Shown: positions 3,911 to 62,775 of the stretch, in pieces
How the letters are laid out: each line of letters starts with the position of its first letter
How positions within the stretch are numbered: position 1 is the stretch's first letter
Assembly (NCBI GenBank): GCA_045545875.1
Contig: JAZQBS010000022.1
Span: 845-64,844 of the forward strand
Direction of reading: 5' to 3'
DNA from: Bacteroidales bacterium
GTDB taxonomy: Bacteria; Bacteroidota; Bacteroidia; Bacteroidales; UBA3663
DNA: 64,000 nt
Notes under the pieces: generated by a model
What the model saw: the letters and a program-made list of their open reading frames with translations, nothing else
Database searches by the model: none
What the model was told of the DNA's origin: nothing
Made by a program: the position numbers and the translations under genes

Positions 3911-4085
3911 GGGTTAAGAGGGGTTCTGAAGGGTTCGAGGGGTTCTGAAGGGTTCGAGGGGTTCGAATGGTTGCGATGACATCGCAACAAACTGAACGAG
4001 GGGGACCTTTCGAACTATTCGCTCTGAGCTCTGCTCGCGTGGAGCGAAGCGTAACAACCTTTCGAACCGTTCTGAACCACGAGGG
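3911..4085 (-). repeat. long imperfect inverted repeat of 10-nt GGTTCGA/GGTTCTGA words in the fructokinase 3' UTR
   Basis: The left arm is GGGTTAAGAG GGGTTCTGAA GGGTTCGAGG GGTTCTGAAG GGTTCGAGGG GTTCGAATGG. A perfect 19-nt palindrome GTTGCGATGACATCGCAAC sits at 3970-3988. The right arm carries complementary words (CCTTTCGAAC, CGTTCTGAACC). Confidence 0.8.
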
Positions 4086-6278: not shown

Positions 6279-6285
6279 TTTTTAT

Positions 6286-6469
6286 AAAGGAATTAAAGGG
6301 GAGTAAAAAGGGAGTTAAAGGGGAGTAAAAAAGGAGTTAAAGGGACAATGGTTCAATTAACAATTAACAATTAATAAATAATAATTGTTTGTTTGACCCA
6401 AACTCGTCAAGCGGTAGTAACGTCCCTTTTACTACCCTTTTATAACTTTTTTACTACCCTTTTACTACC
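6286..6469 (-). repeat. structured intergenic element, copy 2 (larger loop containing TTAACAATTAA words)
   Basis: The left arm at 6286-6346 is made of AAAGGGGAGTA/AAAAGGGAGTT words. The right arm at 6422-6469 is made of CCCTTTTACTA words. It shares the same 24-nt core as copy 1. Confidence 0.8.
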
Positions 6470-14499: not shown

Positions 14500-14594
14500 A
14501 TGATTTTCAATTAACAATTAATAATTAACAAATAACAATTAATAATTAACAATTAACAATTAATGATTATCAAGTAATAATTAATAATTGTTGG
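14500..14594. repeat. TTAACAATTAA-type AT-word tandem repeat filling the SusC-SusD spacer
   Basis: The sequence is TTAACAATTAATAATTAACAAATAACAATTAATAATTAACAATTAACAATTAATG...AATAATTAATAATTGTTGG. The words are self-complementary (AATT/TTAA cores) with a 10-11-nt period. Confidence 0.8.
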
Positions 14595-17886: not shown

Positions 17887-20784
17887 CTAGTTATTTCCTG
17901 TTTTTCTCTTCACCAATTCGTTGGGCATTTCGCCGAAAAAGTCCTTATAGCACTTGGTGAAATAGCTTGGAGCGGTGAAACCTACGGAATAGGCCACCTG
18001 GGCAATGGTGTCGTCGCCCTGAGCCAACATCTGCTGTGCCCGCTTGAGTCGCATGTTGCGAATGAGTTCGACAGGCGAATAGTTGGTCAGCGCCTTGGTC
18101 TTGCGATAGAGTTGTGCACGGCTCATGCCCATCATGTCGCCCAACTGCTCCACACCGAAGTCCGAATCGCTGAAACTGCGCTCGATGATGTCCTTCATCT
18201 TGACAAGGAACTTGTCGTCGAGGGAGGAGGAGGGGGTTCTGAGGGGTTCTGAGGGGTTCGAAGAGTTCGAGGGGTTCGAAAGGTTGCTCCCGTTGGTCGC
18301 GGCCGGGCGAAGCGAGATGCCCGAAGAACCGAAGAAGTCGCGCACGCGGTTATGATTGTTGACCAGCGAACGGAGCTGGGCACGCAGCACGTCGGCATTG
18401 AAGGGCTTCGACATGTAGGCGTCGGCACCACCTTCGGCCAGACCCTTGACGCGCTGTTCGTCCATGGCATTGGCAGTGAGCATCAGGATGGGGATGTGGC
18501 AGGTGTTAACCTCCTGCTTGAGACGGCGACAACACTCGATGCCGTCCATCACAGGCATCATCATGTCGCAGACGATCACGTCGGGCACGGTTCGCATCGC
18601 CTTGCCCACACCCGTCAGTCCGTCGCCTGCCGTGATGACACGATAGTGTTCGCCCAGCAGCATCTGCATATACTGACGCAGGTCGGCATTGTCGTCGATG
18701 ACCAGCACCAGGGGCTTGGGTTCGCTCTCAATAACGTTCTCCCCTTCAAATGAATCGCCCAACTCGGTCTCGATGGTGGCTGCATCAATCTGCAGACTGC
18801 CTGCATCGACCGTTTCGTCCTCGGTCACGGGTACGCGTGGGATGGTGACCGTGAAGATCGTGCCTGTACCTTCGGTCTGGTTCTGCACTTCGATGGTGCC
18901 ACCATGCAGTTCGACGAAACTCTTTGCCACAGCGAGGCCGATGCCCGATCCTTCATGACGTGCCGAATCGACCTGATAGAAGTTTTCGAAGATGCGCTGG
19001 ATGTGCTCCACGTTGATGCCGGGACCGGTGTCAGAGACCCGCAAGATTATGCGGGGGTTTGAGGGGGTCGAAGGGTTCGAAAGGTTCGAGGGGGTTGAGG
19101 TTGAGAGGGAGAGGGTGATCTTTCCATTTTCGGGGGTGAACTTGAAGGCATTGCCCATGAGGTTGAAGAAGACGCGCTCGAGCTTAGGCACGTCTGCCAT
19201 AGTACGGTAGTCGCCATCGTCGGCAGAAAAGTCCAGTTTGATGTGCTTCTTGTAGGCGAGTCCCTTAAAGTAGCCGAAGCTGGTCTGACAAGCCTGGCGC
19301 AGATCGACAGGCTTCAGGTCGAGGTCGAGCTTTCCGCTCTCGAGTTTGCGGAAGTCGAGCAACTGGCCCACCAGTCGCTGCAGTACCTTGACGTTCTTCA
19401 ACGCCAGGTTCAGCAGTTGCGTCGCCTCAGGGTCCTTGCCTCCGGCACCGTCGAGCTCGCCGCGGTCGAGTTTCTGCTGTATCTGTTCCAAGGGTGCCGA
19501 AATGAGCGTCAACGGCGTGCGGAAGTCATGGCTCACGTTGGTGAAGAATGCAATCTTCGCCTTGGTGGCCTCCTCGACCTGCTGGCTCAGGCGCTTGAGC
19601 TGGATGTTCTGCTCGGCAAGCTGGTCACGCTGAGCCTTGAGCAATGCCTTCTGGCGGTTCAGGCTTTCGCCCAGACGACGTTTCTGCCGATAGCTGCTGT
19701 AATAGAACAGAAGGAACAGGAGCGCCATCGCCAGCAGTGCCAGCAGCGCGTACATCAGCGTGCGTTCGAGGTCGAGCTGCTGCCAGTAGGAATCGGCACG
19801 CGCCTGCAGCATCTTCACGGTCTCGATCTGGTGGTCCACTTCGCGATAGACGTTGTCGATGCTCTTGGCAGCACCCATGTCGATGAGCGACGTGGGCAGC
19901 ACCACATCGCGCTCGAAGGGCTCGCCGCGCAGGATCTTCATCGCCGTCTGCACAATCAGGTCACCGCCTGTGATGTAGGTGGCCGACACGTCGATCGTGC
20001 CGTTACGGATGGCTTCGATGCCATTGTCCGTGCCTGTCAGGCCATCCACGCCCATGATGAAGATCTTATGGTCGAGCCGGGCACTTTGCAGGGCACGGCT
20101 TGCCCCGATGGCCATCTGGTCGTTCTGTGCCAGTATCACCTTGATGTCGGGATGCTGCGCGAGCACCTTCTGCACCTCGGCTTCGCCCCTGTCGCGCTTC
20201 CATGCTCCCATGCATTGCACGAACTGATAACGGTCGCCCGTGTCGCCGAGCGATTCGACGAGGCCCTGATGACGCAATTCCTGGGGCGTCGAGCCTATCA
20301 GGCCCATCACCTCGAGCACCTTGCCGCCTTGGGGCAACACCCTTTGCAGGTACTCGCCCTGCAGCTTGCCCACCTCAAGGTTGTCGCCGCCCACGAAAGC
20401 CGTATATTTGTCGCCCGTCACCTTTCGGTCGGCCACAATCACGGGGATGCCTGCATCGAATGCCTTCGACACGGCGGGCGTGAGCGAGTCGGCACGGTTG
20501 GGCGAAACCACGAGCAGATCGACGCCCTGGGCGATGAAGTAGTCGATGTCGCGCGCCTGGCGCTCGTTGTCGTCGTCGGCCGAACGCACTTCGAGGGTGA
20601 CACCCGGGTAGAACAGCAGTTCGCGGTGCATCTCCTCGTTGAGTTTGGTGCGCCAGGCATCGTCGCTGCATTGCGACACGCCGATGCGGTAGTCGGCAGT
20701 GGTGGTTTCCCCGCACGACATGATGCACAGGGCAATGGTCAGCAGCGACAGAAATATAACAATAAGATAAAGATGTCGTTTCAT
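17887..20784 (-). CDS. hybrid two-component system regulator with a periplasmic sugar-binding (PBP type 1) sensor domain; BT1754-like fructose sensor
   Basis: 965 aa. It has an N-terminal PBP-like domain (YRIGVSQCSDDAWRTKLNEE...), a TM segment, an H-box (SHDFRTPLT), an HATPase (SDTGPGI), a receiver domain (LVLVIDDN...DMMMPVMDG) and a C-terminal AraC HTH. Two low-complexity S/N/P inserts are encoded by GGTTCGAA words. Confidence 0.9.
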   Translation of the reverse strand: MKRHLYLIVIFLSLLTIALCIMSCGETTTADYRIGVSQCSDDAWRTKLNEEMHRELLFYPGVTLEVRSADDDNERQARDIDYFIAQGVDLLVVSPNRADSLTPAVSKAFDAGIPVIVADRKVTGDKYTAFVGGDNLEVGKLQGEYLQRVLPQGGKVLEVMGLIGSTPQELRHQGLVESLGDTGDRYQFVQCMGAWKRDRGEAEVQKVLAQHPDIKVILAQNDQMAIGASRALQSARLDHKIFIMGVDGLTGTDNGIEAIRNGTIDVSATYITGGDLIVQTAMKILRGEPFERDVVLPTSLIDMGAAKSIDNVYREVDHQIETVKMLQARADSYWQQLDLERTLMYALLALLAMALLFLLFYYSSYRQKRRLGESLNRQKALLKAQRDQLAEQNIQLKRLSQQVEEATKAKIAFFTNVSHDFRTPLTLISAPLEQIQQKLDRGELDGAGGKDPEATQLLNLALKNVKVLQRLVGQLLDFRKLESGKLDLDLKPVDLRQACQTSFGYFKGLAYKKHIKLDFSADDGDYRTMADVPKLERVFFNLMGNAFKFTPENGKITLSLSTSTPSNLSNPSTPSNPRIILRVSDTGPGINVEHIQRIFENFYQVDSARHEGSGIGLAVAKSFVELHGGTIEVQNQTEGTGTIFTVTIPRVPVTEDETVDAGSLQIDAATIETELGDSFEGENVIESEPKPLVLVIDDNADLRQYMQMLLGEHYRVITAGDGLTGVGKAMRTVPDVIVCDMMMPVMDGIECCRRLKQEVNTCHIPILMLTANAMDEQRVKGLAEGGADAYMSKPFNADVLRAQLRSLVNNHNRVRDFFGSSGISLRPAATNGSNLSNPSNSSNPSEPLRTPSSSLDDKFLVKMKDIIERSFSDSDFGVEQLGDMMGMSRAQLYRKTKALTNYSPVELIRNMRLKRAQQMLAQGDDTIAQVAYSVGFTAPSYFTKCYKDFFGEMPNELVKRKTGNN

Positions 20785-55537: not shown

Positions 55538-55543
55538 TTTATT

Positions 55544-55730
55544 AGGGATATTAAGAGATATTTGGAGAAATTAAGGGATATTTGGGGATATTAAGGGATA
55601 TTTAGGGACGTTACTTTCGCCAGTAGAGAATGAGGTCAAGAAAACAATTGTTAATTGTTAATTATTAATTGTTATTTGAACCATCGTCCCTAAAAATCCC
55701 TTACAGTCCCTTAGAAACCCTTACATTCCC
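55544..55730 (-). repeat. structured intergenic element (AGGGATATTT-word arm / loop with AT words / complementary CCCTTAnnnn-word arm)
   Basis: The left arm is at 55544-55610 and the right arm at 55685-55730. GGGACGTTACTTTCGCC at 55605-55621 is the reverse complement of the GCGnnAGTAACGTCCC core seen at 5055-5070 and 6411-6426. Confidence 0.8.
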
Positions 55731-57359
55731 TTATTTCAGCAATCGATCATATCCGAGCGAGCGCATGCCTTGAGCAACGCTCTTGGCATTCTGCTGTGCA
55801 CCCGTCAGGCTGGTGTGGGTGTGGTCGTGGTTGTAGTAGGCCTTGGCGGCTTCCTGACCGATGCTATCGAGATAGTCGGCAGTGATGTTGTGTACGTCGA
55901 TGAAGGGCACACCAGTGGCTTCGACCACTTCACGATACCACTTGCCGTAGGTGTCATTGCGACGCTCGATCTTGCCACCAGGCCACTCGTTGCGTGGGGT
56001 AAGGCTAAGCAGAATTGGAGTAGCACCCTTCTCGCGCGCGTCCTGGATCATCTTCTTCAAATACCAGCCGAAGCTATAGACGGCCTCGTATTCGCCCGTG
56101 GCTTCGAGCTTGAAGACCTTGGTCGAATCGGTGCCCAAGGCGATTTCGCCACGTGCCTTGCCCTTTTCGATGTCGCCCACATCGTTGTGGCCAAACTGCA
56201 GGAAGACGATGTCGCCCGGCTGCAGCGAGTTATAGACCTTCTCCCAGCGACGCTCGTTGAGATAGGTGCGGCACGAACGGCCTGCCATGGCTTCGTTCTG
56301 GAAGATGACGGTAGCGGTGTCGAAGACGGTGTATGCCTGGCTGCCCCAGCCCCACATGCCGTTGGGATCGTTGTCGGAGTTCTTGCAGGTGGAGTCGCCG
56401 CAGAGCCAAACGACGGTCTTGCCCGGTGTGCGGTTCACATCGACGTGGATGGGCGTAAGGTCCTTGAGATACTCCTTAAGCGGACAGTTCTCGCACTGCT
56501 GGATAGCAAGCGCTGCGCTGTAGGCGTTGTTCTCAGCACCGAAGCGCGAGGTGTGGATCTTATCGACATAGTAGAACATGTACTCGGTCTTCCAATGTCC
56601 GAACTTCTCGAGACGCAAAGCACTTACGCCTTCGAGGTCAATCCACGGCACGTTCATCTCTTCGGCCACCGCCTTTCCCCACGGGGTGAACGTGTTCCAC
56701 TTGCGGGTGATGGTGGTCTCGTTGTCCCAAGAGTTGCGGGGCGTCAACGAAGCAATGAGCGGATAAGCGCCCTTGGCACGCACGTCGTTGATGAACATGC
56801 GCATATACTGTCCGTAGCTATAGACGGTCTCGACACGTCCGTTCCAGTCCTTCGAGCGACAGTCATGGAGCGTCACCGTGACGCAGGTATCGGGGTCGAT
56901 GCCGGCGATGCTGTTGCGTGCGGTCCAGGTGTCGAGGGGACCATTGTCATTGTGACCCAGTTCGATGAGCACATAGTCGCCAGCCTGCACGCCCTTGAGT
57001 ACATCGGGCCAAAGCTGGTTGTAGAACGTGCGGCTCGACGTTCCGCCGAGGGCATGGTTCTCGACGGTGATGCGCTCTTCGTCGAAATACTGATAGGCGA
57101 AGGCACCCCAACCCCATTGGCCGTTGTTACCATTGCCCTTGGTGCCGGTGCGCATCGTGCTGTTTCCGACGAGGAAGAGCACAGGATTGTTGCCCTTGCG
57201 GCTGGAGCCAGGAACGGGACGTGCATATTTCGAATCGGCATCCTCCGACTGCTTGTAGTTATCGACAGTGGTATCGTTGATGCCGTTGGCATCCTTCACT
57301 TGGGCTCCACCAACAAAGGCAGCGGAGAAAAGGGCTAGAGTGATGAGGGTTCTTTTCAT
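55731..57359 (-). CDS. tandem double SGNH/CE12-type esterase (rhamnogalacturonan acetylesterase-like)
   Basis: 542 aa. Two repeats each have block I (LVGNSTM / LCGDSTC), block III (GHND) and block V (D..H). A signal peptide is present. Confidence 0.8.
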   Translation of the reverse strand: MKRTLITLALFSAAFVGGAQVKDANGINDTTVDNYKQSEDADSKYARPVPGSSRKGNNPVLFLVGNSTMRTGTKGNGNNGQWGWGAFAYQYFDEERITVENHALGGTSSRTFYNQLWPDVLKGVQAGDYVLIELGHNDNGPLDTWTARNSIAGIDPDTCVTVTLHDCRSKDWNGRVETVYSYGQYMRMFINDVRAKGAYPLIASLTPRNSWDNETTITRKWNTFTPWGKAVAEEMNVPWIDLEGVSALRLEKFGHWKTEYMFYYVDKIHTSRFGAENNAYSAALAIQQCENCPLKEYLKDLTPIHVDVNRTPGKTVVWLCGDSTCKNSDNDPNGMWGWGSQAYTVFDTATVIFQNEAMAGRSCRTYLNERRWEKVYNSLQPGDIVFLQFGHNDVGDIEKGKARGEIALGTDSTKVFKLEATGEYEAVYSFGWYLKKMIQDAREKGATPILLSLTPRNEWPGGKIERRNDTYGKWYREVVEATGVPFIDVHNITADYLDSIGQEAAKAYYNHDHTHTSLTGAQQNAKSVAQGMRSLGYDRLLK

Positions 57360-57444: not shown

Positions 57445-58701
57445 TTAGTTTCCGTCAGGCTTGGTCATATCCACAAAGGGGCAGTTGTTCCAATGGAAGG
57501 TTTCGATCGCATCGGGATGGGACGGATCGAACTGGCTGAATTCGGGCAGCACAAACGCGCCGATGGGCATTTCGGATTGTGCGAGAGCGGCGGCAACCAT
57601 CTTGGCAATCTCGTAGGCGCCATAGGGGTTGAAATGCGTATTGTCGGCAAGAGCCTTTTCCTGGCCAGGCCATGTGCCGGCAGGATAGTGCACGAAGGCA
57701 CGTTTCGAGTCCTCCTCTCCCATTGCTTCGTAGAACTTACCGGTCATAGCCTGCAAGTCGATGCAGAGAAGTCCTTCGCGCTCAGCGATGGCACGGATGG
57801 CGGCAGGATAGTCCTTGTGGGTGTTCTGGTTCACACCATTCTTGAAACTGCGGCGCATGGTGGGTGTGCAGAGGATGAGGGTGGCCCCCTTCTGTCGGCA
57901 CTGGTCGAGAATCATCTTCACCTGATGACTGAAGGCGTAGTAGGCACCATTGCCGGGGCGGTCGTCGGTCTTCTGGTCGTTGTGGCCGAATTCGAGTATC
58001 ACGTAGTCTCCTTCGCGAAGGAGGCTATGAACCTTGGCCCAACGGTTCTGGCCAATCAGGGTGGCTACGGCCAATCCGCTTTCGGCATAATTGGCCACGG
58101 CAAGACCTTCGTTGAGGAAACGTGGGATCATCTGTCCCCAGCTTGCCCAGGGTTCGTTGCTCTGATCGACCACAGTGCTGTTGCCCAGGAGATATAGGGT
58201 GGAAATCTGTTCATCGCGCTCGATGGAGATGCTTTGGATAGCAGGGGCATCGCCATTGATTTCGAAGGTGAGCTTGCGGTCCCAATGCAGTTTGCCTCCC
58301 TCATCGGGCTTCAGTTTCACCTTATCGGCCTTGCCTTTGGCATCGGTGAAGAGCGAATCGCGCTTGTTGACCACGAAGGTGCGCGTCACCAGTTCTCCCT
58401 TTTTAGTGGCAAGATTTTCGACAAAGAGGCGACGGCTCTCACAACGGATGGTTGTAATAGCAGCACGCTTCTTGCTGCCGATGGTGACGGTGACACGATA
58501 GTTGCCATCGGGTACATTGACACTGAAGAAGAAGGGGGCTGTGGAGCGGCCATCCCACGAGGTGCCCAGGTCATAGCCGTAGCCTGTGACATCGGTATAG
58601 GCTGCCACCTTGGGGAAAGAAACAGATAAACTAGTAAATTCCTCTGCTTGGAGCGAAAAGCCGCAGAGTAAAAGGACGAAAAGCGAAAAATAATGTTTCA
58701 T
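57445..58701 (-). CDS. CE12-type SGNH esterase with an N-terminal beta-sandwich domain (rhamnogalacturonan acetylesterase-like)
   Basis: 418 aa with a signal peptide. Motifs are LLGNSTV, EFGHNDQK and ADNTHFNPYGA. Confidence 0.8.
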   Translation of the reverse strand: MKHYFSLFVLLLCGFSLQAEEFTSLSVSFPKVAAYTDVTGYGYDLGTSWDGRSTAPFFFSVNVPDGNYRVTVTIGSKKRAAITTIRCESRRLFVENLATKKGELVTRTFVVNKRDSLFTDAKGKADKVKLKPDEGGKLHWDRKLTFEINGDAPAIQSISIERDEQISTLYLLGNSTVVDQSNEPWASWGQMIPRFLNEGLAVANYAESGLAVATLIGQNRWAKVHSLLREGDYVILEFGHNDQKTDDRPGNGAYYAFSHQVKMILDQCRQKGATLILCTPTMRRSFKNGVNQNTHKDYPAAIRAIAEREGLLCIDLQAMTGKFYEAMGEEDSKRAFVHYPAGTWPGQEKALADNTHFNPYGAYEIAKMVAAALAQSEMPIGAFVLPEFSQFDPSHPDAIETFHWNNCPFVDMTKPDGN

Positions 58702-58721
58702 TGGTGCTAAGAATTATGGTG

Positions 58722-58729
58722 CAAAGATA
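58722..58729 (-). promoter_or_regulatory. -7 promoter box (TATCTTTG on the minus strand) for the esterase/sulfatase/GH operon
   Basis: Exact match 21 nt upstream of ATG 58701. Confidence 0.45.
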
Positions 58730-58854
58730 ATAAATCTAACCAAGAAAAACAAAAAACGGGCTAAAAAGTTGGACAATTTATGTATATTTTATCCGTTTTT
58801 TGATTTTTCTTATCCAAAATAAAAATAAAATTTGGCGTTTTGGGTGGAAAATCC

Positions 58855-58862
58855 TATCTTTG
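58855..58862 (+). promoter_or_regulatory. -7 promoter box (TATCTTTG)
   Basis: Exact match 66 nt upstream of ATG 58928. Confidence 0.45.
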
Positions 58863-58927
58863 CGCCGTTAAAATCAAATATTGAAAAATCATTATCAGTC
58901 ATACACAAACTTCAAACTCTAAGGCTT

Positions 58928-59839
58928 ATGAAACAATTTCTACTTACTTCTGCATTGGCCCTTGGCGCTGCCATCGCCTTTGCCGAGACCGAGACTCCTC
59001 TCACCCTCGTAGAGGGACACACCCTCCTCATCTCCGAAATCGACGGACTGGGCGCAGCTGACACGGACATCGTGCGCTTCTACATCGTCAACAATTCAGC
59101 CGACAGCCGCGATACTTGGGGAATCGGTGGTTTTGCCAATTCCGACAACTGGACTCCTATCGTGCAGTGGACAGGCATGCCTGGCAGCAGCTGGACTTAT
59201 GAGTACACCGTAGCTGCCATCAAGGAAGTCGCCGGCACCACTCCAGGAGAGTATCATGACGTGGGGATCACCATCAACATCTACAACGATTGTGCAGTCG
59301 ATCATGTGACCCTCGTAGGCGACATCGCTCCACAAACCGAAAAGACCCTTTGGGAAGGCGAATACACCTTCGACGAGAGTTGGAGCGGTTCAGTCAGCAT
59401 CGGCAAGATTGACGTGAAGGCAGGCGACAAGCTCCTCATCACTGCCGAGCCCGTGGAGGCTGTAAGTTGGGAATGGGGCGGACAGTTATTCGTCAAGTCT
59501 CTCGCCGACGGCTGGGGTGCTATTGCTCCCACCATCAACGTCAATGCTGCTGACACTTATACGGTAGCCATCACCGACACCGATATCACAGTTGAGCCTT
59601 ACAAACTCGATCCCTACACTTCGAACATGGTGGCAGAACTCACCAACTATGGTCTCGTCCTTCAGGGAATCGACGCCAAGGTAACCAAGGTGGTGCTCGT
59701 GACCAGTGGCGAAACTTCCATCAGCGAAGTGAAGGCTGCTCCTGTTGCCAATAGCGCTATCTACAACATCGCTGGCCAGAAGCTCAACGCAGCCAAGGGA
59801 CTCTGCGTTGTGAACGGCAAACTTATTCTGGTGAAATAA
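58928..59839 (+). CDS. secreted protein with a T9SS C-terminal sorting domain (function unknown)
   Basis: 303 aa from ATG 58928; the track start is a TTG. The signal peptide is MKQFLLTSALALGAAIAFA. The C-terminus ...SAIYNIAGQKLNAAKGLCVVNGKLILVK matches the type-A Por/T9SS tail pattern. Confidence 0.75.
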   Translation: MKQFLLTSALALGAAIAFAETETPLTLVEGHTLLISEIDGLGAADTDIVRFYIVNNSADSRDTWGIGGFANSDNWTPIVQWTGMPGSSWTYEYTVAAIKEVAGTTPGEYHDVGITINIYNDCAVDHVTLVGDIAPQTEKTLWEGEYTFDESWSGSVSIGKIDVKAGDKLLITAEPVEAVSWEWGGQLFVKSLADGWGAIAPTINVNAADTYTVAITDTDITVEPYKLDPYTSNMVAELTNYGLVLQGIDAKVTKVVLVTSGETSISEVKAAPVANSAIYNIAGQKLNAAKGLCVVNGKLILVK

Positions 59840-59875
59840 GCAATTTACGACGACTTTTTCGTCTTCGACAACTCT

Positions 59876-59913
59876 CCCTCGGTACTAAAAACAGGTATCG
59901 AGGGATATTTTTT
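59876..59913 (+). terminator. intrinsic terminator of the T9SS-cargo gene
   Basis: The stem CCCTCGGTAC / GTATCGAGGG has one mismatch and a 9-nt loop, and is followed by ATATTTTTT. Confidence 0.65.
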
Positions 59914-59920
59914 GTCGCAA

Positions 59921-60280
59921 GCACTCTGTCGGCCGTCAGAGTGTTATTTCTAAATGCGGAAGCATTATGTCGGCCGTTAGAGTGCTATTTCCGAGCGAAG
60001 AGAGTATTCTGTCGGCCGTCAGAGTGTTATTTCCGAGCGAAGAGAGCATTATGTCGGACGTCAAAGTGTTATTTCCGAGCAGAGAAAGCACTCTGTCGGC
60101 CGTTAGAGTGTTATTTCCGAGAGTAGGAAGTACTCTGTCGGCCGTCAGAGTGTTATTTCCGAGCGAAGAAAGCATTCTGTCGGCCGTCAGAGTGTTATTT
60201 CCAAGCGAAGGAAGTACTCTGTCGGCCGTCAGAGTGTTATTTCCGAGCGAACAAAGTACTCTGTCGGCCGTCAGAGTGTG
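59921..60280. repeat. tandem array of a 42-nt unit (8 full + 1 partial copy), each with a ~20-22-nt imperfect palindrome
   Basis: Unit boundaries fall at 59921, 59962, 60004, 60046, 60088, 60130, 60172, 60214 and 60256. The consensus is G[CT]A[CT]TCTGTCGGCCGTCAGAGTGTTATTTCCGAGCGAAGAAA, with palindrome ACTCTG-T-CGGCCG-T-CAGAGT. The last copy runs into TGTTTTTC. Confidence 0.95.
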
Positions 60281-60477
60281 TTTTTCAAAAAAAAGACTGT
60301 GTGCCCTTTATATATAGTGAGTCTTTAAATCTTTATTTTTTTCTTTATCTTTAATAAGAACCGAGCGCGCGTATGAGGCGAGTGTACAGGTACGCATATG
60401 AGGCGCGCTCGCGTCATACACACGAGCCCGCGCGAAGAAAATTCAACAAAACTATACGTTTGTTGATCAAGAATCAT

Positions 60478-60508
60478 AAAAAAAGAACCCCACTTACAAG
60501 TGTAAATG
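60478..60508 (-). terminator. terminator-like hairpin plus U-tract downstream of tRNA-Leu
   Basis: The minus strand reads CCAUUUA CACUUG UAAGUGG, a 7-bp stem that includes one G-U pair, followed by GGUUCUUUUUUU. Confidence 0.45.
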
Positions 60509-60525
60509 GAGTTCGTTACAAGGAA

Positions 60526-60607
60526 GTACGGGTAGTGGGACTCGAACCCACACGCCTCGCGACACCAGATCCTAAGTCTGGCCTGTCTACCAATTTCAGC
60601 ATACCCG
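60526..60607 (-). tRNA. tRNA-Leu(UAG): tRNA-Leu, anticodon UAG, 82 nt with a long variable arm; CCA not encoded
   Basis: Folded by hand. Acceptor stem GCGGGTA/TACCCGT with a G1-U72 pair. D-loop AAAUUGGUAGA. Anticodon stem CCAGA/UCUGG with loop CUUAGGA. Variable arm about 14 nt. T-arm GTGGG TTCGAGT CCCAC. Discriminator A. Confidence 0.9.
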
Positions 60608-60625
60608 CCTATCGAATTTGCGGGC

Positions 60626-60633
60626 GCAAAGAT
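60626..60633 (-). promoter_or_regulatory. -7 promoter box (TATCTTTG on the minus strand) for tRNA-Leu
   Basis: Exact match 18 nt upstream of the mature tRNA 5' end. Confidence 0.5.
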
Positions 60634-60671
60634 ACAACAAAAATTTGGAACTTCCAAATATTTTCGAAAAA

Positions 60672-61796
60672 TTATTCACTTTTGGTCGTATCTCGCAGTG
60701 CTCGAGTATTCCGTATGATATATTGGCGTGCCGCTTCGATGATGTCATCGCGATGATTCTGGTATGCCGACACACTATCCATATCGACTTTGAGACCAGG
60801 AGATGGATCGATGCCCGACTCGGTGCTGTTTCCATCAGGATCGGTCATTGGGCACGCTGAGAAACGAATAGACCAGCCATTGGGCAAGACACTTTCGAAA
60901 GGCAGGCCCGAGCCGCCTCCTGTACGATCGCCGCAAATCTTAATCATCTTGGGGAAAAGAATACCGAGCGTATCGGGTGTCATCGTTCCATCGAGGGCAC
61001 GCATAAGCTGCACGAAGTTGTTGGCAGCGCTGAAACAATGGCGATTGGTCAGAATCACCACTGGACGTACCGAAGCATCCCACATCATCCGATCGTCGGC
61101 AGGTTCGATATAGAGAGGTTCTGCCTTGGAAAAGTCGTTGTGACCACGTCCAGTCTTATGACGGATGTAACCACTCAGCGTCTTCTCGGTGGCAAAACGC
61201 TCGGCCAACGTGACAGCATTGGACAGCGAGCCACCTCCATTGTTGCGAATATCGAGTATCAATCCATTGGCATTGCGGATGAGAGCAAGGATATAGTCGA
61301 GGTTCGTTGCACCGATGGCACTGTTGAACGAACTGTAACGAACATAAGCCACCGAGTCGCGACGATACATCACATACTGCATACCTGCCGTGTACCAGTA
61401 ATTCGTGCCAAGATAATATTCACGAATCAGGTTGTCGTCGTAGTTGGTGGGATAATCCTCATACCACGACCAATAGCGAGCAATATTGAAAGGAGTATAG
61501 ACGTTTATGTGGCCGTCGCGCAACGTGTCAACCATCTCGTCGAGCACATTGAAAAGCTCGAACTGTGTCTTGATGGAATCTTTGAAAAGAGGAGCATATT
61601 TGCGATGAACACCCTCCCAATCGACACCCTTCTCATCGAAGAAGCAATAATGCTCATCAAGTGTCTGCCAGAAGGCTTCGAAGTTGCCACGCAAACTATC
61701 GTCCTGCTCCAACTGGTCATCGTCGAGACAAGCGGTGAAGAGGCAGCCTGCCGACAACAAGCAACAAAGAGCTGTGAACCATGAACCCTTAACCAT
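60672..61796 (-). CDS. S41-family C-terminal processing (tail-specific) peptidase, lipoprotein
   Basis: It has the S41 motif LILDIRNNGGGS and the lipoprotein signal MVKGSWFTALCCLLSAGCLFTAC. I prefer the fourth in-frame ATG (61796). The three upstream ATGs (61862, 61838, 61817) lie inside the heptamer repeat. Confidence 0.8.
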   Translation of the reverse strand: MVKGSWFTALCCLLSAGCLFTACLDDDQLEQDDSLRGNFEAFWQTLDEHYCFFDEKGVDWEGVHRKYAPLFKDSIKTQFELFNVLDEMVDTLRDGHINVYTPFNIARYWSWYEDYPTNYDDNLIREYYLGTNYWYTAGMQYVMYRRDSVAYVRYSSFNSAIGATNLDYILALIRNANGLILDIRNNGGGSLSNAVTLAERFATEKTLSGYIRHKTGRGHNDFSKAEPLYIEPADDRMMWDASVRPVVILTNRHCFSAANNFVQLMRALDGTMTPDTLGILFPKMIKICGDRTGGGSGLPFESVLPNGWSIRFSACPMTDPDGNSTESGIDPSPGLKVDMDSVSAYQNHRDDIIEAARQYIIRNTRALRDTTKSE

Positions 61797-61862
61797 GAAC
61801 CGTGAACCACGAATCATAAACCATGAACCCTTAACCATGAACCGTGAACCATTAATATGCAT
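61773..61862. repeat. CCATGAA heptamer repeat (~12 copies) overlapping the 5' end of the S41 peptidase gene and the 3' end of the upstream gene
   Basis: The sequence is TGTGAAC CATGAAC CCTTAAC CATGAAC CGTGAAC CACGAAT CATAAAC CATGAAC CCTTAAC CATGAAC CGTGAAC CATTAAT. If translated it gives the 7-aa repeat GSRFMVK/GSWFMIR. Confidence 0.85.
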
Positions 61863-62775
61863 CGTAGGGCGAACGTTTTAGAAGACTTGCCTTGCGGCGA
61901 CTGAATGGCAGGTACTGATAAACCCAGCCGATAACGAACTCAAAACTGCTGTAGCGCGTGGTGATATCATTGATGTCCATCGTCTCGATGTGATACGAGC
62001 CGCCCAGACGCAAGATGGAATCGAAACTGCGGAACCACGGGATAATAGCCAACGGGAAATCGACTGCCAGTTGCACGTCAACATCCTGCTGGTTATGAAG
62101 CGAAGTAAAATGGAGGATGTTGCCCGACGTATTGAGATAGAACGTCTCGTAATAACTGGCCCCATATTCCGGGCAGAAGCCCATACCAAGCAGTGGAGCA
62201 TGCGCCTGTAGCATTACCTTCATACCTTGTGCCCATGGCGTCTGGAACTTGTAGCTAACGGCGCCAGCAGCTCCCAGATTGGTGGTGATTCGAGCCGTGG
62301 CAGGATTATTGGACGATCCCATCTTCAAGTTGTAGTCAAAGCCGAGATCAACGCCAGCATAAGGACCCAGGTAGAAAGACCAGGGGGAACCGAAGGACTC
62401 CGAAGGGTTCGAGTGGTTCGAAAAGTTTGAAAGGTTCGAAAGGCTTTCGGACCAGCGATGCAGAACGCCATAGCGATAACGCAGACGACCTGTCCACGCC
62501 TCACTATTGTGTCCATGGTCTTCGCCTGTCGAGAACATGATGTCGGCCTGCTGCCAAGAAGTCCAAACCGGATTGCGATGCATACGCCAACGTTGCCCTT
62601 CAAGGCTGATGGAACTTCCAGTATAAAGAAGTGGGGTCAGATAGGTGTCGCGCATCTTCCCCTGGCCGATGCGCAGGGAAAGGATATTGGTAACGGGTCG
62701 TGGCAACTCATCCTGTGCCCAAACAGACACAGGAATGAACAATAACGCCCACACCAGGAGGAGGAATCTTTTCAT
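61852..62775 (-). CDS. hypothetical outer-membrane-like protein (signal peptide, beta-rich, C-terminal aromatic residue)
   Basis: 307 aa with signal peptide MKRFLLLVWALLFIPVSVWA. Alternating hydrophobic patterns suggest beta strands. It contains an in-frame GGTTCGAA-word insert encoding SLSNLSNFSNHSNPSESF. Confidence 0.55.
   Translation of the reverse strand: MKRFLLLVWALLFIPVSVWAQDELPRPVTNILSLRIGQGKMRDTYLTPLLYTGSSISLEGQRWRMHRNPVWTSWQQADIMFSTGEDHGHNSEAWTGRLRYRYGVLHRWSESLSNLSNFSNHSNPSESFGSPWSFYLGPYAGVDLGFDYNLKMGSSNNPATARITTNLGAAGAVSYKFQTPWAQGMKVMLQAHAPLLGMGFCPEYGASYYETFYLNTSGNILHFTSLHNQQDVDVQLAVDFPLAIIPWFRSFDSILRLGGSYHIETMDINDITTRYSSFEFVIGWVYQYLPFSRRKASLLKRSPYDAY

What the first reader, a model, noticed from the sequence alone, without database searches (positions are those of the whole stretch)
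59921..60280. 42-nt tandem array of phased palindromes between a T9SS-cargo gene and tRNA-Leu
There are eight full units and one partial unit: the first is 41 nt, the next seven are 42 nt. Each unit carries the imperfect palindrome ACTCTG-T-CGGCCG-T-CAGAGT followed by a conserved 20-nt tail (GTTATTTCCGAGCGAAGAAA). The upstream gene has its own terminator (59876-59913), so the array is probably not part of that mRNA. The last palindrome is followed by a T-run. A 42-bp period equals four helical turns, so all palindromes face the same side of the helix. This resembles iterons or cooperative operator arrays for a dimeric DNA-binding protein. Differences between copies in the palindrome arms (for example CATTATG versus TTAGAGTG) are not compensatory, which argues against a conserved RNA hairpin and for a DNA-level role. 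The position next to a tRNA gene is also typical for integration hot spots.
Basis: partly seen in the sequence, partly recalled or inferred. Interest (0 to 1): 0.6.

Follow-up and report, generated by a model that had tools for sequence, protein, structure and literature searches.

The report
Orphaned 42-bp phased palindrome array
The 42-base repeat is real but is not a private control site: it is one of about fifty such palindrome arrays in this uncultured ruminant-gut bacterium. Complete copies of the family sit directly behind the gene of a small MarA-like DNA-binding protein, so this copy is most likely a leftover docking platform for that protein.

Summary
In detail: nine palindromes lie 41 then 7x42 nt apart at 59919-60279. 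The array is not unique. Its core occurs about 200 times in the genome. About 58 arrays at 52 loci share a 41-42-nt period but fall into at least seven palindrome families. They are enriched between convergent genes.

The main result is a gene-array link. A small stand-alone AraC/MarA-type HTH gene has 12 copies here and up to 15 in relatives. A 41-43-nt palindromic array follows its stop codon in 43 of 49 distinct loci, even where the unit sequence is unrelated. HTH clades match palindrome families perfectly.

The window copy has no HTH gene. Its 3' flank (about 60319-60458) is homologous to the gene that precedes one HTH subtype, and linker type and orientation also match that subtype. It is therefore a decayed module lying between two convergent terminators. 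Two related species have an empty site.

The best reading is a phased, sopC-like binding platform for the cognate HTH, but binding is untested. The rivals are a selfish minisatellite and an RNA hairpin array.

The scan had already noted this family on other genomes (e1-4832704, e1-3568385).

The parts
58832..59839 (+). Upstream gene (335-aa ORF). It is not part of the element. The 'T9SS cargo' label is unverified.
   Evidence: ORF list. No Pfam or NCBIfam family matched. It is conserved at 79-94% nt identity in 8 related species.
59875..59913 (+). Intrinsic terminator of the upstream gene. It marks the left boundary of the insertion.
   Evidence: 12-bp stem plus TATTTTTTGT. It is kept in both the filled and the empty orthologous sites.
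59919..60279 (.). Family-A array: nine imperfect palindromes at 41/42-nt spacing, all in the same orientation, with the T.T-mismatch strand on +.
   Evidence: The linker type GTTATTTCCGAG is shared with the arrays behind the C146-type HTH genes.
60256..60290 (+). Last palindrome plus T-run (terminator-like). It is not conserved in orthologues.
60319..60458 (-). Remnant of the gene that precedes C146-type HTH genes (a Lin1244_N-like protein). It corresponds to that gene's low-complexity GC-rich repeat plus AT-rich stretch. The approximately 760 nt in between, which would hold the HTH gene, are missing.
   Evidence: An nhmmer profile of six orthologous tails was searched against the whole genome plus module loci. 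The only non-self hits were L091 1.8e-7, L092 9.4e-7, L090 6.5e-6, L108 6e-5 and G000 C146:1349-1215 7.2e-5, all in the consistent strand. The upstream gene gives a weak PF14297 hit. The tail is single-copy by BLAST.
60485..60514 (-). Terminator of tRNA-Leu. It marks the right boundary of the inserted block.
   Evidence: It is present back to back with the gene's terminator in the empty sites of G021 and G015.
60526..60608 (-). tRNA-Leu (anticodon TAG). It is a neighbour, not part of the element.

Best explanation
The array is the surviving DNA component of a recurrent two-part module. The module consists of a small stand-alone AraC/MarA-type HTH gene followed, within 0-64 nt of its stop codon, by about nine 42-bp units. 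Each unit holds a family-specific imperfect palindrome and a short linker that is itself weakly palindromic.

Shown: the window copy belongs to palindrome family A. It carries the linker subtype and the orientation of the 'C146-type' module. It still has a piece of that module's upstream gene on its far side. It lacks the HTH gene, so it is an orphaned, decayed module lying between two convergent terminators.

Inferred: the arrays are phased multi-site docking platforms for the cognate HTH protein, built like the F-plasmid centromere sopC (12 x 43 bp, one inverted repeat per unit, next to sopB). Two dyads 21 bp apart and a period of four helical turns would put all sites on one face of the DNA. 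Orphan arrays such as this one would be bound in trans by the A-type HTH paralogues encoded elsewhere in the genome (seven copies, two of them incomplete). There they could act as a protein sink or a road-block/insulator at gene ends, or they may simply be relics. The arrays change length by whole units and are homogenised within each array.
For: Family membership. The core gives 197 hits against 3 for the control. About 58 arrays lie at 52 loci, and 42 nt is the dominant long period in the genome. All units within an array share one orientation.

Gene-array link. Twelve small HTH genes in this genome score E<=3e-13 against the family profile, while generic AraC proteins score >=8.5e-11. Eleven of the twelve have an array or array units just downstream, and one has it 51 nt upstream. 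Across 49 distinct loci from 22 genomes and other metagenomes, 43 have their best downstream autocorrelation at 41-43 or 83-85 nt. This includes homologues of 25-40% identity whose units share no sequence with family A.

Co-diversification. Palindrome-family labels need the minimum of 4 changes on the HTH tree, whereas shuffles average 12.2 and none of 200 was as low.

The protein is a DNA binder. A profile search of the PDB hits AraC-type DNA-binding domains: 6swi at 3.7e-13, AdpA, SoxS, MarA and RamA.

Decayed-module reading. This rests on the tail homology, the shared linker subtype and the orientation. The T.T strand is antisense to the HTH gene in all 7 A-type modules and antisense to the remnant in the window.

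DNA-level rather than hairpin-level constraint. A1 and T20 are invariant and T5, G6, C8, G9, C12 and G13 are at least 95% conserved, while pairs 2/19, 3/18 and 4/17 are 30-47% unpaired without compensation. There is no orientation rule relative to flanking genes: 7 sense against 13 antisense.

Narrow size. HTH-linked arrays in the array-rich clade have 7.4-9.9 units.
Against: Co-diversification and adjacency are also what simple co-inheritance of a gene with its 3' flank would give, and the loci are related, so the statistics overstate the case. MarA/SoxS-type domains normally bind asymmetric sites as monomers, whereas these sites are palindromes. About 40 of 52 loci have no HTH gene or remnant within 900 nt. 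Composite C-spacer-A arrays have spread without any HTH gene, so the arrays can propagate on their own like selfish repeats. Between orthologues the array diverges faster (core 8-9%, linker 11-16%) than its unique tail (4-5%), so this copy shows no sign of purifying selection. Array lengths may be biased by short-read assembly, since many arrays lie at contig ends.
Confidence: 0.5

Rival explanations
1. The arrays are a selfish or neutral dispersed palindromic minisatellite, comparable to REP/BIME or MIRU elements. They seed in harmless gaps at gene 3' ends, grow and shrink by slippage or unequal exchange, and are homogenised within each array. The HTH gene is merely a frequent neighbour because the arrays arose in its 3' flank and are duplicated together with it.
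For: The distribution is lineage-restricted and patchy: 46-195 hits in 8 of 36 genomes of the genus and 0-3 in the others, and the exact 20-mer occurs in only about 9 ruminant MAGs out of 185,579 species. Convergent gaps are enriched, 16 of 33 against 15% genome-wide, P 5e-6. Empty sites exist in G021 and G015. Length differences between orthologues are multiples of 42. Divergence is faster than in the flanks. Composite C-spacer-A units are copied to 5 loci without any gene. Orientation is random.
Against: No RAYT/Y1 transposase was found in six array-bearing genomes, and there are no terminal inverted repeats or target duplications. This reading does not explain why the 41-43-nt period and the position right after the stop codon are kept across HTH homologues of 25-40% identity whose units are unrelated. 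It also does not explain the narrow size of 8-10 units. Arrays are stable at orthologous sites: 23 of 24 mapped sites are occupied.
Confidence: 0.27
2. The array works as RNA. It is transcribed as the 3' UTR of the HTH gene, or of whatever gene lies upstream, and forms a chain of hairpins. The hairpins would terminate transcription, protect the mRNA from 3' exonucleases or yield small RNAs, as REP/BIME elements do in E. coli.
For: In complete modules the array starts 0-64 nt after the stop codon with no room for a separate terminator, so it is probably co-transcribed. Both strands fold far better than shuffles: + strand -174.6 kcal/mol, z -13.2, and - strand -132.8 kcal/mol, z -9.6. Every family keeps dyad symmetry despite different sequences.
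Against: There is no compensatory change within 188 family-A units. In the 7 HTH-linked A arrays the wobble-compatible mismatches lie on the strand antisense to the HTH gene (G.T 89 against A.C 25), so the sense RNA has the weaker hairpins. Orientation relative to upstream genes is random for orphan arrays. The window copy lies behind a strong terminator. No Rfam family matched. A strictly kept period is not needed for independent hairpins.
Confidence: 0.15
3. This is the first reader's local reading: the array is an operator or iteron array serving this locus, or an integration hot spot tied to tRNA-Leu.
For: The array lies next to a tRNA gene, and the site is empty in two related species.
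Against: About 50 other loci carry such arrays and only 2 have a tRNA within 600 nt. There is no integrase, no att-like duplication of the tRNA 3' end and no cargo genes. The inserted block is only about 575 nt. In G013 and G031 the same array plus tail abuts a different gene. The array sits between two terminators, away from any promoter.
Confidence: 0.03

Closest known systems
sopC centromere of plasmid F with SopB (ParB family)
   Same: sopC is 12 direct repeats of 43 bp, each with one 16-bp inverted repeat, bound by the protein it serves (PMC3177203 abstract). From my own knowledge, sopC lies just downstream of sopB. The period is about four helical turns and the copy number is about 10.
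   Different: Here the neighbouring protein is a monomer-type AraC/MarA domain, not a ParB. No ParA-type ATPase gene was noticed among the neighbours I read, and I ran no dedicated search for one. The modules are chromosomal, multi-copy (up to 15 per genome) and accompanied by about 40 orphan arrays. Several palindrome families coexist and even alternate within one array.
REP elements and BIME clusters; GTAG/CGTC-tagged REPs (Di Nocera et al. 2013, PMC3733652)
   Same: Both are short imperfect palindromes in high copy, extragenic, preferentially between convergent and tandem genes, lineage-specific, with several families per genome.
   Different: REPs occur mostly as head-to-head dimers. Head-to-tail arrangements are absent or negligible and clusters are irregular. 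Here the units are exclusively head-to-tail at a fixed 41-42-nt period. No RAYT was found and there is no terminal GTAG/CGTC tag.
MIRU-type dispersed minisatellites of Mycobacterium tuberculosis (from my own knowledge, not checked in a paper here)
   Same: A family of 40-100-bp units forms tandem arrays at dozens of intergenic loci, with copy number varying between strains.
   Different: MIRUs are oriented with transcription and are not palindromic. Here orientation is random, the units are palindromes and there is a linked DNA-binding protein gene.
BrickBuilt minisatellite/MITE of Porphyromonas gingivalis (Klein et al. 2015, PMC4596501)
   Same: It is a Bacteroidales intergenic tandem-repeat element present at about 19 loci, always intergenic.
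   Different: BrickBuilt has 23-nt bricks with leader and tail subunits and inverted-repeat ends. Here the units are 42 nt with no common leader or tail (the tail is unique) and no terminal inverted repeats.
MarA/SoxS/Rob/RamA stand-alone AraC-type activators and their marbox sites
   Same: The linked protein is of the same size and fold class (profile hits to 1bl0, 7w5w and 7bef).
   Different: Marboxes are single asymmetric 20-bp sites in promoters. Here the presumed sites are palindromic, repeated about 9 times at a fixed period, and placed after the gene rather than in a promoter.
Type III toxin-antitoxin antitoxin arrays (ToxI, 36-nt repeats)
   Same: Both are tandem arrays of about 36-45-nt units adjacent to a small gene.
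   Different: In ToxIN the array precedes the toxin gene and is processed by it. Here the array follows an HTH gene, no endoribonuclease gene is present, and there are dozens of orphan arrays.

Membership tests
HTH-linked 42-bp palindrome arrays (family seen in this scan; no published name found) | Head-to-tail units of 41-43 nt, each with one imperfect palindrome | tested here: met
HTH-linked 42-bp palindrome arrays (family seen in this scan; no published name found) | Unit sequence belongs to a palindrome family that also occurs directly behind a small AraC/MarA-type HTH gene | tested here: met
   Family A lies behind 7 HTH copies in this genome. The linker subtype equals that of the C146 and G013 L092 arrays.
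HTH-linked 42-bp palindrome arrays (family seen in this scan; no published name found) | HTH gene immediately adjacent to this particular array | tested here: not met
   No HTH ORF or remnant lies within 900 nt. Only a remnant of the module's upstream gene is present, so this is an orphan or decayed copy.
HTH-linked 42-bp palindrome arrays (family seen in this scan; no published name found) | The HTH protein binds the palindromes | not testable with these tools
   Needs EMSA, DAP-seq or ChIP-seq
REP / REPIN-RAYT system | RAYT (Y1 transposase, PF01797) in the genome, flanked by the repeats | tested here: not met
   No match in G000 or in 5 array-rich relatives of 84-93% completeness; the controls were positive.
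REP / REPIN-RAYT system | Inverted (head-to-head) doublets and a terminal GTAG or CGTC tag | tested here: not met
   All units within an array are in one orientation. The definition was taken from PMC3733652.
Plasmid-type centromere (sopC/parS/parC) | Tandem phased repeats with an inverted repeat next to the gene of the binding protein | tested here: inconclusive
   The architecture is met in complete modules, but the protein is not a ParB, ParR or TubR type.
Plasmid-type centromere (sopC/parS/parC) | Partner NTPase (ParA/ParM/TubZ) and an extrachromosomal or mobile replicon | not tested
   The neighbours whose family I checked are Amidase_2 and weakly Lin1244_N-like; others read by eye look like an AraC protein, an acyltransferase and a GH3 enzyme. 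Two distant loci have no NTPase among the called genes. No dedicated ParA search was run.
MITE (e.g. BrickBuilt) | Terminal inverted repeats, common leader/tail and target-site duplication | tested here: not met
   The tail is unique in the genome. The empty-site comparison shows no duplication.
CRISPR array | Repeats separated by unique spacers of 26-72 nt, with cas genes | tested here: not met
   The linkers are 16-22 nt and similar to each other. There are about 50 loci.
Type III TA antitoxin array | Array directly upstream of an endoribonuclease toxin gene | tested here: not met
   There is no consistent gene downstream of the arrays: 3 tandem and 4 convergent contexts.
Protein-coding 14-residue repeat | Frame kept and consistent coding strand | tested here: not met
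   41-nt arrays are common. Orientation is random. The arrays lie after stop codons and terminators.

The most novel reading that the evidence does not exclude
A lineage of uncultured ruminant-gut Bacteroidales has evolved a chromosome-wide system that has not been described. A radiating family of MarA-like HTH proteins each recognises its own palindrome family. The sites are built into arrays of fixed period (42 bp) and near-fixed length (about 9 units), both next to the gene and at dozens of trans sites at gene ends. There the nucleoprotein complexes would act as transcriptional road-blocks or insulators, or as chromosome-organising or segregation-like landmarks. Mixed arrays (A+B, D+E) would recruit two different proteins in alternation.
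Probability: 0.3. Interest if true: 0.8.

Novelty: new variant of a known kind. Interest (0 to 1): 0.6.

Why it matters
If the HTH proteins do bind their arrays, this would be a natural set of orthogonal protein/DNA-site pairs. There are at least seven palindrome families, each with a cognate small regulator. The architecture resembles a plasmid centromere but is spread over a chromosome, in a group of abundant rumen bacteria that cannot yet be cultured. It would also explain a large share of assembly breaks in these MAGs, since many contigs end inside arrays. If the proteins do not bind, the arrays are still a new, strictly periodic kind of dispersed palindromic minisatellite that lacks the transposase usually invoked for REP-like repeats. 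For this particular window the practical message is that the array is a relic of a larger module and not a regulator of the neighbouring gene or tRNA.

Tried and rejected
- **Rfam scan of 58500-62000 at E<=5.** It returned only tRNA-Leu and meaningless sub-threshold microRNA-precursor hits, which reflect long hairpins.
- **RAYT/IS200-type transposase search.** None was found in six genomes.
- **Wobble asymmetry (G.T against A.C) as a test for an RNA-level strand.** The overall count was 314:190, but per contig it was 17 against 12, and units within an array are copies of each other. No robust inference was possible.
- **Orientation relative to flanking genes.** No rule emerged.
- **Tail as part of a repeated composite element.** Rejected, because it is single-copy by BLAST. 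Only a profile search revealed its relation to the module's upstream gene.
- **BLAST of module sequences against the whole genome to find more decayed modules.** The output was swamped by unrelated micro-repeats and gave no further cases.
- **HMM search for HTH remnants within 900 nt of all arrays.** None was found beyond the 12 known copies.
- **Recurrent flanking gene families.** Apart from the HTH family, only unrelated paralogue pairs turned up.
- **Literature searches** for Prevotella/Bacteroidetes REP, BIME, 42-bp repeats and AraC-linked repeats. Nothing describes this family.
- **Coding, CRISPR, type III TA and MITE readings.** All rejected; see the membership tests.

Full report
**1. 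The observation**

The sequence at 59919-60279 is a clean tandem array. TRF reports period 42, 8.6 copies, 85% matches and score 498. Nine palindrome cores are spaced 41, 42, 42, 42, 42, 42, 42 and 42 nt. Each unit is ACTCTG-T-CGGCCG-T-CAGAGT followed by GTTATTTCCGAGCGAAGAAAGC.

The upstream ORF (58832-59839) ends with a strong intrinsic terminator at 59875-59913. tRNA-Leu (60526-60608, minus strand) has its own terminator at 60514-60485. The array and a 245-nt 'tail' therefore lie between two convergent terminators.

The 'T9SS cargo' label could not be confirmed with Pfam or NCBIfam. Rfam gives nothing but the tRNA.

**2. The array is not unique**

The 18-nt core with up to 3 mismatches occurs 197 times in the window's own genome, a 3.7-Mb, 227-contig MAG that is 82.8% complete. 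The reversed control occurs 3 times. The hits cluster in 37 loci.

TRF on the whole genome shows that 42 is by far the commonest long period, followed by its multiples 84 and 126. After merging there are about 58 arrays at 52 loci, 19.7 kb in all. Many lie at contig ends, so this is an undercount.

Palindrome centres are 42 nt apart in 136 cases, 41 nt in 27 cases and never 43 nt in this genome.

The arrays fall into at least seven families with quite different palindromes:
- A: ACTCTGTCGGCCGTCAGAGT
- B: ACCATTCTTGGCCAAGATTGGT
- C: ATGTCC..ACGAACGT..GGACAT
- D: GCATACAGATTT..AAATCTGTATGC
- E: GTCCAATT..AATTGGAC
- F
- H

All share a scaffold TCGGA-GCAY-[palindrome]-RTGC-TCCGA. The linker is thus itself a small palindrome, and every unit has two dyads about 21 nt apart. 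Some arrays alternate two families at an 84-nt period.

**3. Where the arrays sit and how they evolve**

Gene context was judged with a crude ORF caller.
- Of 33 loci with genes on both sides, 16 lie between convergent genes, 12 between tandem genes and 5 between divergent genes.
- Genome-wide the shares are 15%, 69% and 16%. The binomial P for the convergent excess is 5e-6.
- Only 2 of 52 loci have a tRNA within 600 nt.

Family A is abundant (46-195 hits) in 8 of 36 other species-level genomes of the genus and absent (0-3 hits) from the rest and from 24 other families of the order. The exact 20-mer occurs in only about nine ruminant MAGs (sheep, buffalo, yak, reindeer, cattle) among 185,579 species.

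Among close relatives, 23 of 24 arrays whose flanks could be mapped have an array at the orthologous site of this genome. Lengths differ by multiples of about 42 nt.

The window's own site compares as follows.
- The gap from the stop codon to the tRNA is 683 nt here, 684 nt in G024, 724 nt in G030 and 726 nt in G010.
- It is only 133 nt in G021 and G015, where the two terminators stand back to back. These are empty sites.
- G025 and G031 have an array at the same junction, with the same palindrome but a different linker.

Between orthologues the core differs by 8-9%, the linker by 11-16% and the unique tail by 4-5%. The array therefore turns over faster than its flanks.

**4. Hairpin or sequence?**

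In 188 family-A units, A1 and T20 are invariant and T5, G6, C8, G9, C12 and G13 are at least 95% conserved. A T.T mismatch is kept in 78% of units.

Stem pairs 2/19, 3/18 and 4/17 are unpaired in 30-47% of units without compensation. At pair 3/18 the counts are TA 128, TG 29, CA 27 and CG 0. Only the outer pair 0/21 covaries.

Units within an array all point the same way. Arrays, however, have no fixed orientation relative to the nearest gene whose 3' end faces them: 7 are sense and 13 antisense.

Both strands fold much better than shuffles, as any chain of palindromes must.

No RAYT/Y1 transposase is present in six array-bearing genomes. The strict head-to-tail arrangement is the opposite of the head-to-head dimers typical of REPs (PMC3733652).

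**5. The gene-array link**

An all-against-all comparison of the proteins flanking the arrays revealed one recurrent family, a protein of about 140 aa. It gives a weak HTH_18/AraC match in Pfam. A profile search of the PDB clearly hits AraC-type DNA-binding domains, including AdpA, SoxS, MarA and RamA. It is a stand-alone two-HTH domain of MarA size.

A family HMM finds 12 small members in this genome with E<=3e-13, while generic AraC proteins score 8.5e-11 or worse. Eleven have an array or array units 0-140 nt downstream of the stop codon, and one has the array 51 nt upstream.

The family has up to 15 copies per genome. It occurs in 22 of 39 genomes of this genus. It was not found in about 250 genomes sampled across the rest of the order.

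Across 49 distinct loci, including four members from other metagenomes, 43 have their best autocorrelation in the 400 nt after the stop codon at 41-43 or 83-85 nt. Thirty of these have at least 50% identity at that lag. This holds for homologues of 25-40% identity in genomes that have no family-A repeats at all, whose units are unrelated in sequence.

The palindrome family of the linked array maps onto the HTH tree with the minimum possible number of changes: 4, against a shuffle mean of 12.2, with none of 200 shuffles as low. All A-linked proteins form one clade.

These loci are relatives of one another, so the statistics show clustering and not independent events.

**6. What the window copy is**

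No HTH gene or remnant lies within 900 nt of the window array. The tail to its right is nevertheless informative.

A profile of the six orthologous tails was searched against the whole genome and six module loci. Besides itself it hits only one thing: an internal segment of the gene that precedes the 'C146-type' HTH genes. E-values range from 1.8e-7 to 7.2e-5 in five loci, including G000 C146:1349-1215, and all hits lie on the strand expected. That gene is weakly Lin1244_N-like. The matched segment is its low-complexity GC-rich repeat plus an AT-rich stretch.

Three independent features agree:
- The window array has the linker subtype GTTATTTCCGAG, the same as the arrays behind the C146-type HTH genes.
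- Its T.T strand is antisense to the remnant, as it is antisense to the HTH gene in all seven A-type modules.
- The remnant lies on the side where the gene should be.

The simplest reading is a module [upstream gene - HTH - array] that lost about 760 nt, including the HTH gene.

**7. Mechanism**

Shown:
- membership of the family;
- the gene-array module;
- its conservation of period without conservation of sequence;
- the decayed state of this copy;
- unit-wise length change;
- enrichment at convergent gene ends.

Inferred: the arrays are phased docking platforms for the cognate HTH. The closest architectural precedent is sopC of plasmid F, which has 12 x 43 bp with one inverted repeat per unit bound by SopB (PMC3177203).

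Against this reading:
- There are no binding data.
- MarA-type domains usually read asymmetric sites.
- About 40 arrays have no gene nearby.
- Composite C-spacer-A arrays with homologous spacers have spread to five loci on their own.

A selfish-minisatellite reading and an RNA (3' UTR hairpin) reading therefore remain open. One point against the RNA reading is that, in the HTH-linked A arrays, the wobble-compatible mismatches lie on the strand antisense to the gene (89 against 25). This asymmetry is itself unexplained.

**8. Comparison and novelty**

The element is not a REP/RAYT system, not a MITE like BrickBuilt (23-nt bricks with leader and tail), not a CRISPR array and not a type III antitoxin array. 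It resembles centromere or iteron arrays in build and REP/MIRU families in dispersal.

I found no paper describing it.

Earlier notes of this scan on other genomes (e1-4832704, e1-3568385) describe the same family and the same gene link. I reached the link independently before reading them, and I tested it here on different DNA.

New in this report:
- the inventory of families within one genome;
- the shared scaffold;
- the co-diversification tree;
- the empty site;
- the demonstration that an orphan array can be a decayed module.

**Limits**

Gene calls were made with a crude ORF caller. The genome is an 83%-complete short-read MAG.

Noticed in passing
window 60319-60458 (minus strand sense); G000 C146:1215-1349; L091, L092, L108: The low-complexity middle of the Lin1244_N-like gene upstream of C146-type HTH genes holds 24-nt GC-rich tandem repeats (CGCGTCATCAGACGCGCATACAGA) followed by an AT-rich stretch. 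This layout recalls replication origins embedded in phage replisome-organiser genes. The window tail is a remnant of this segment.
   Followed up: partly
G000 contigs C13, C46, C72, C89, C193: A family-C array and a family-A array lie 88-136 nt apart in the same relative order at five loci. Their spacers are homologous (C13~C89 74% over 94 nt, E 3e-14). This composite array pair has been copied around the genome without any HTH gene.
   Followed up: partly
G000 C12:37180-37630, C151, C153, C186, C93, C123:38-199: Mixed arrays alternate two palindrome families (A+B or D+E) at an exact 84-nt period.
   Followed up: no
window, e.g. 3918-3972, 6285-6469, 14508-14589, 18233-18285, 55540-55733, 61775-61855: There are many 7-11-nt micro-repeat arrays, such as (GGGTTCGAA)n and (AATTAAC)n, and inverted pairs such as (AAAGGGAGTA)n ... 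(CCCTTTTACTA)n, in intergenic gaps. Earlier notes of the scan treat them as fast-turnover repeats.
   Followed up: no
7 HTH-linked family-A arrays in G000 (C81, C106, C146, C181, C42, C211, C160): G.T-type mismatches outnumber A.C-type by 89 to 25 on the strand antisense to the HTH gene. The cause is unknown: it could be mutation bias, antisense transcription or amplification of founder units.
   Followed up: partly
L116 / L117 (metagenome contigs with HTH homologue P0066): A reverse-transcriptase gene (Pfam RVT_1, 401 aa) sits on the opposite strand exactly where the array would be expected behind the HTH gene.
   Followed up: no
G000 C123:43700-44565; G029 L151: In two HTH subtypes the 42-nt array lies upstream of the gene, next to its promoter region, instead of downstream.
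   Followed up: partly
G000 C66:18434-18844: This is the only other array locus next to a tRNA, and that tRNA is also a tRNA-Leu on the minus strand, 178 nt away.
   Followed up: no
G000 C81, C106, C211 and L116: The most A-like HTH genes are preceded by an Amidase_2 (N-acetylmuramoyl-L-alanine amidase) gene. Other neighbours are Lin1244_N-like or AraC genes, so the module sits at the end of phage- or mobile-element-like gene clusters.
   Followed up: partly
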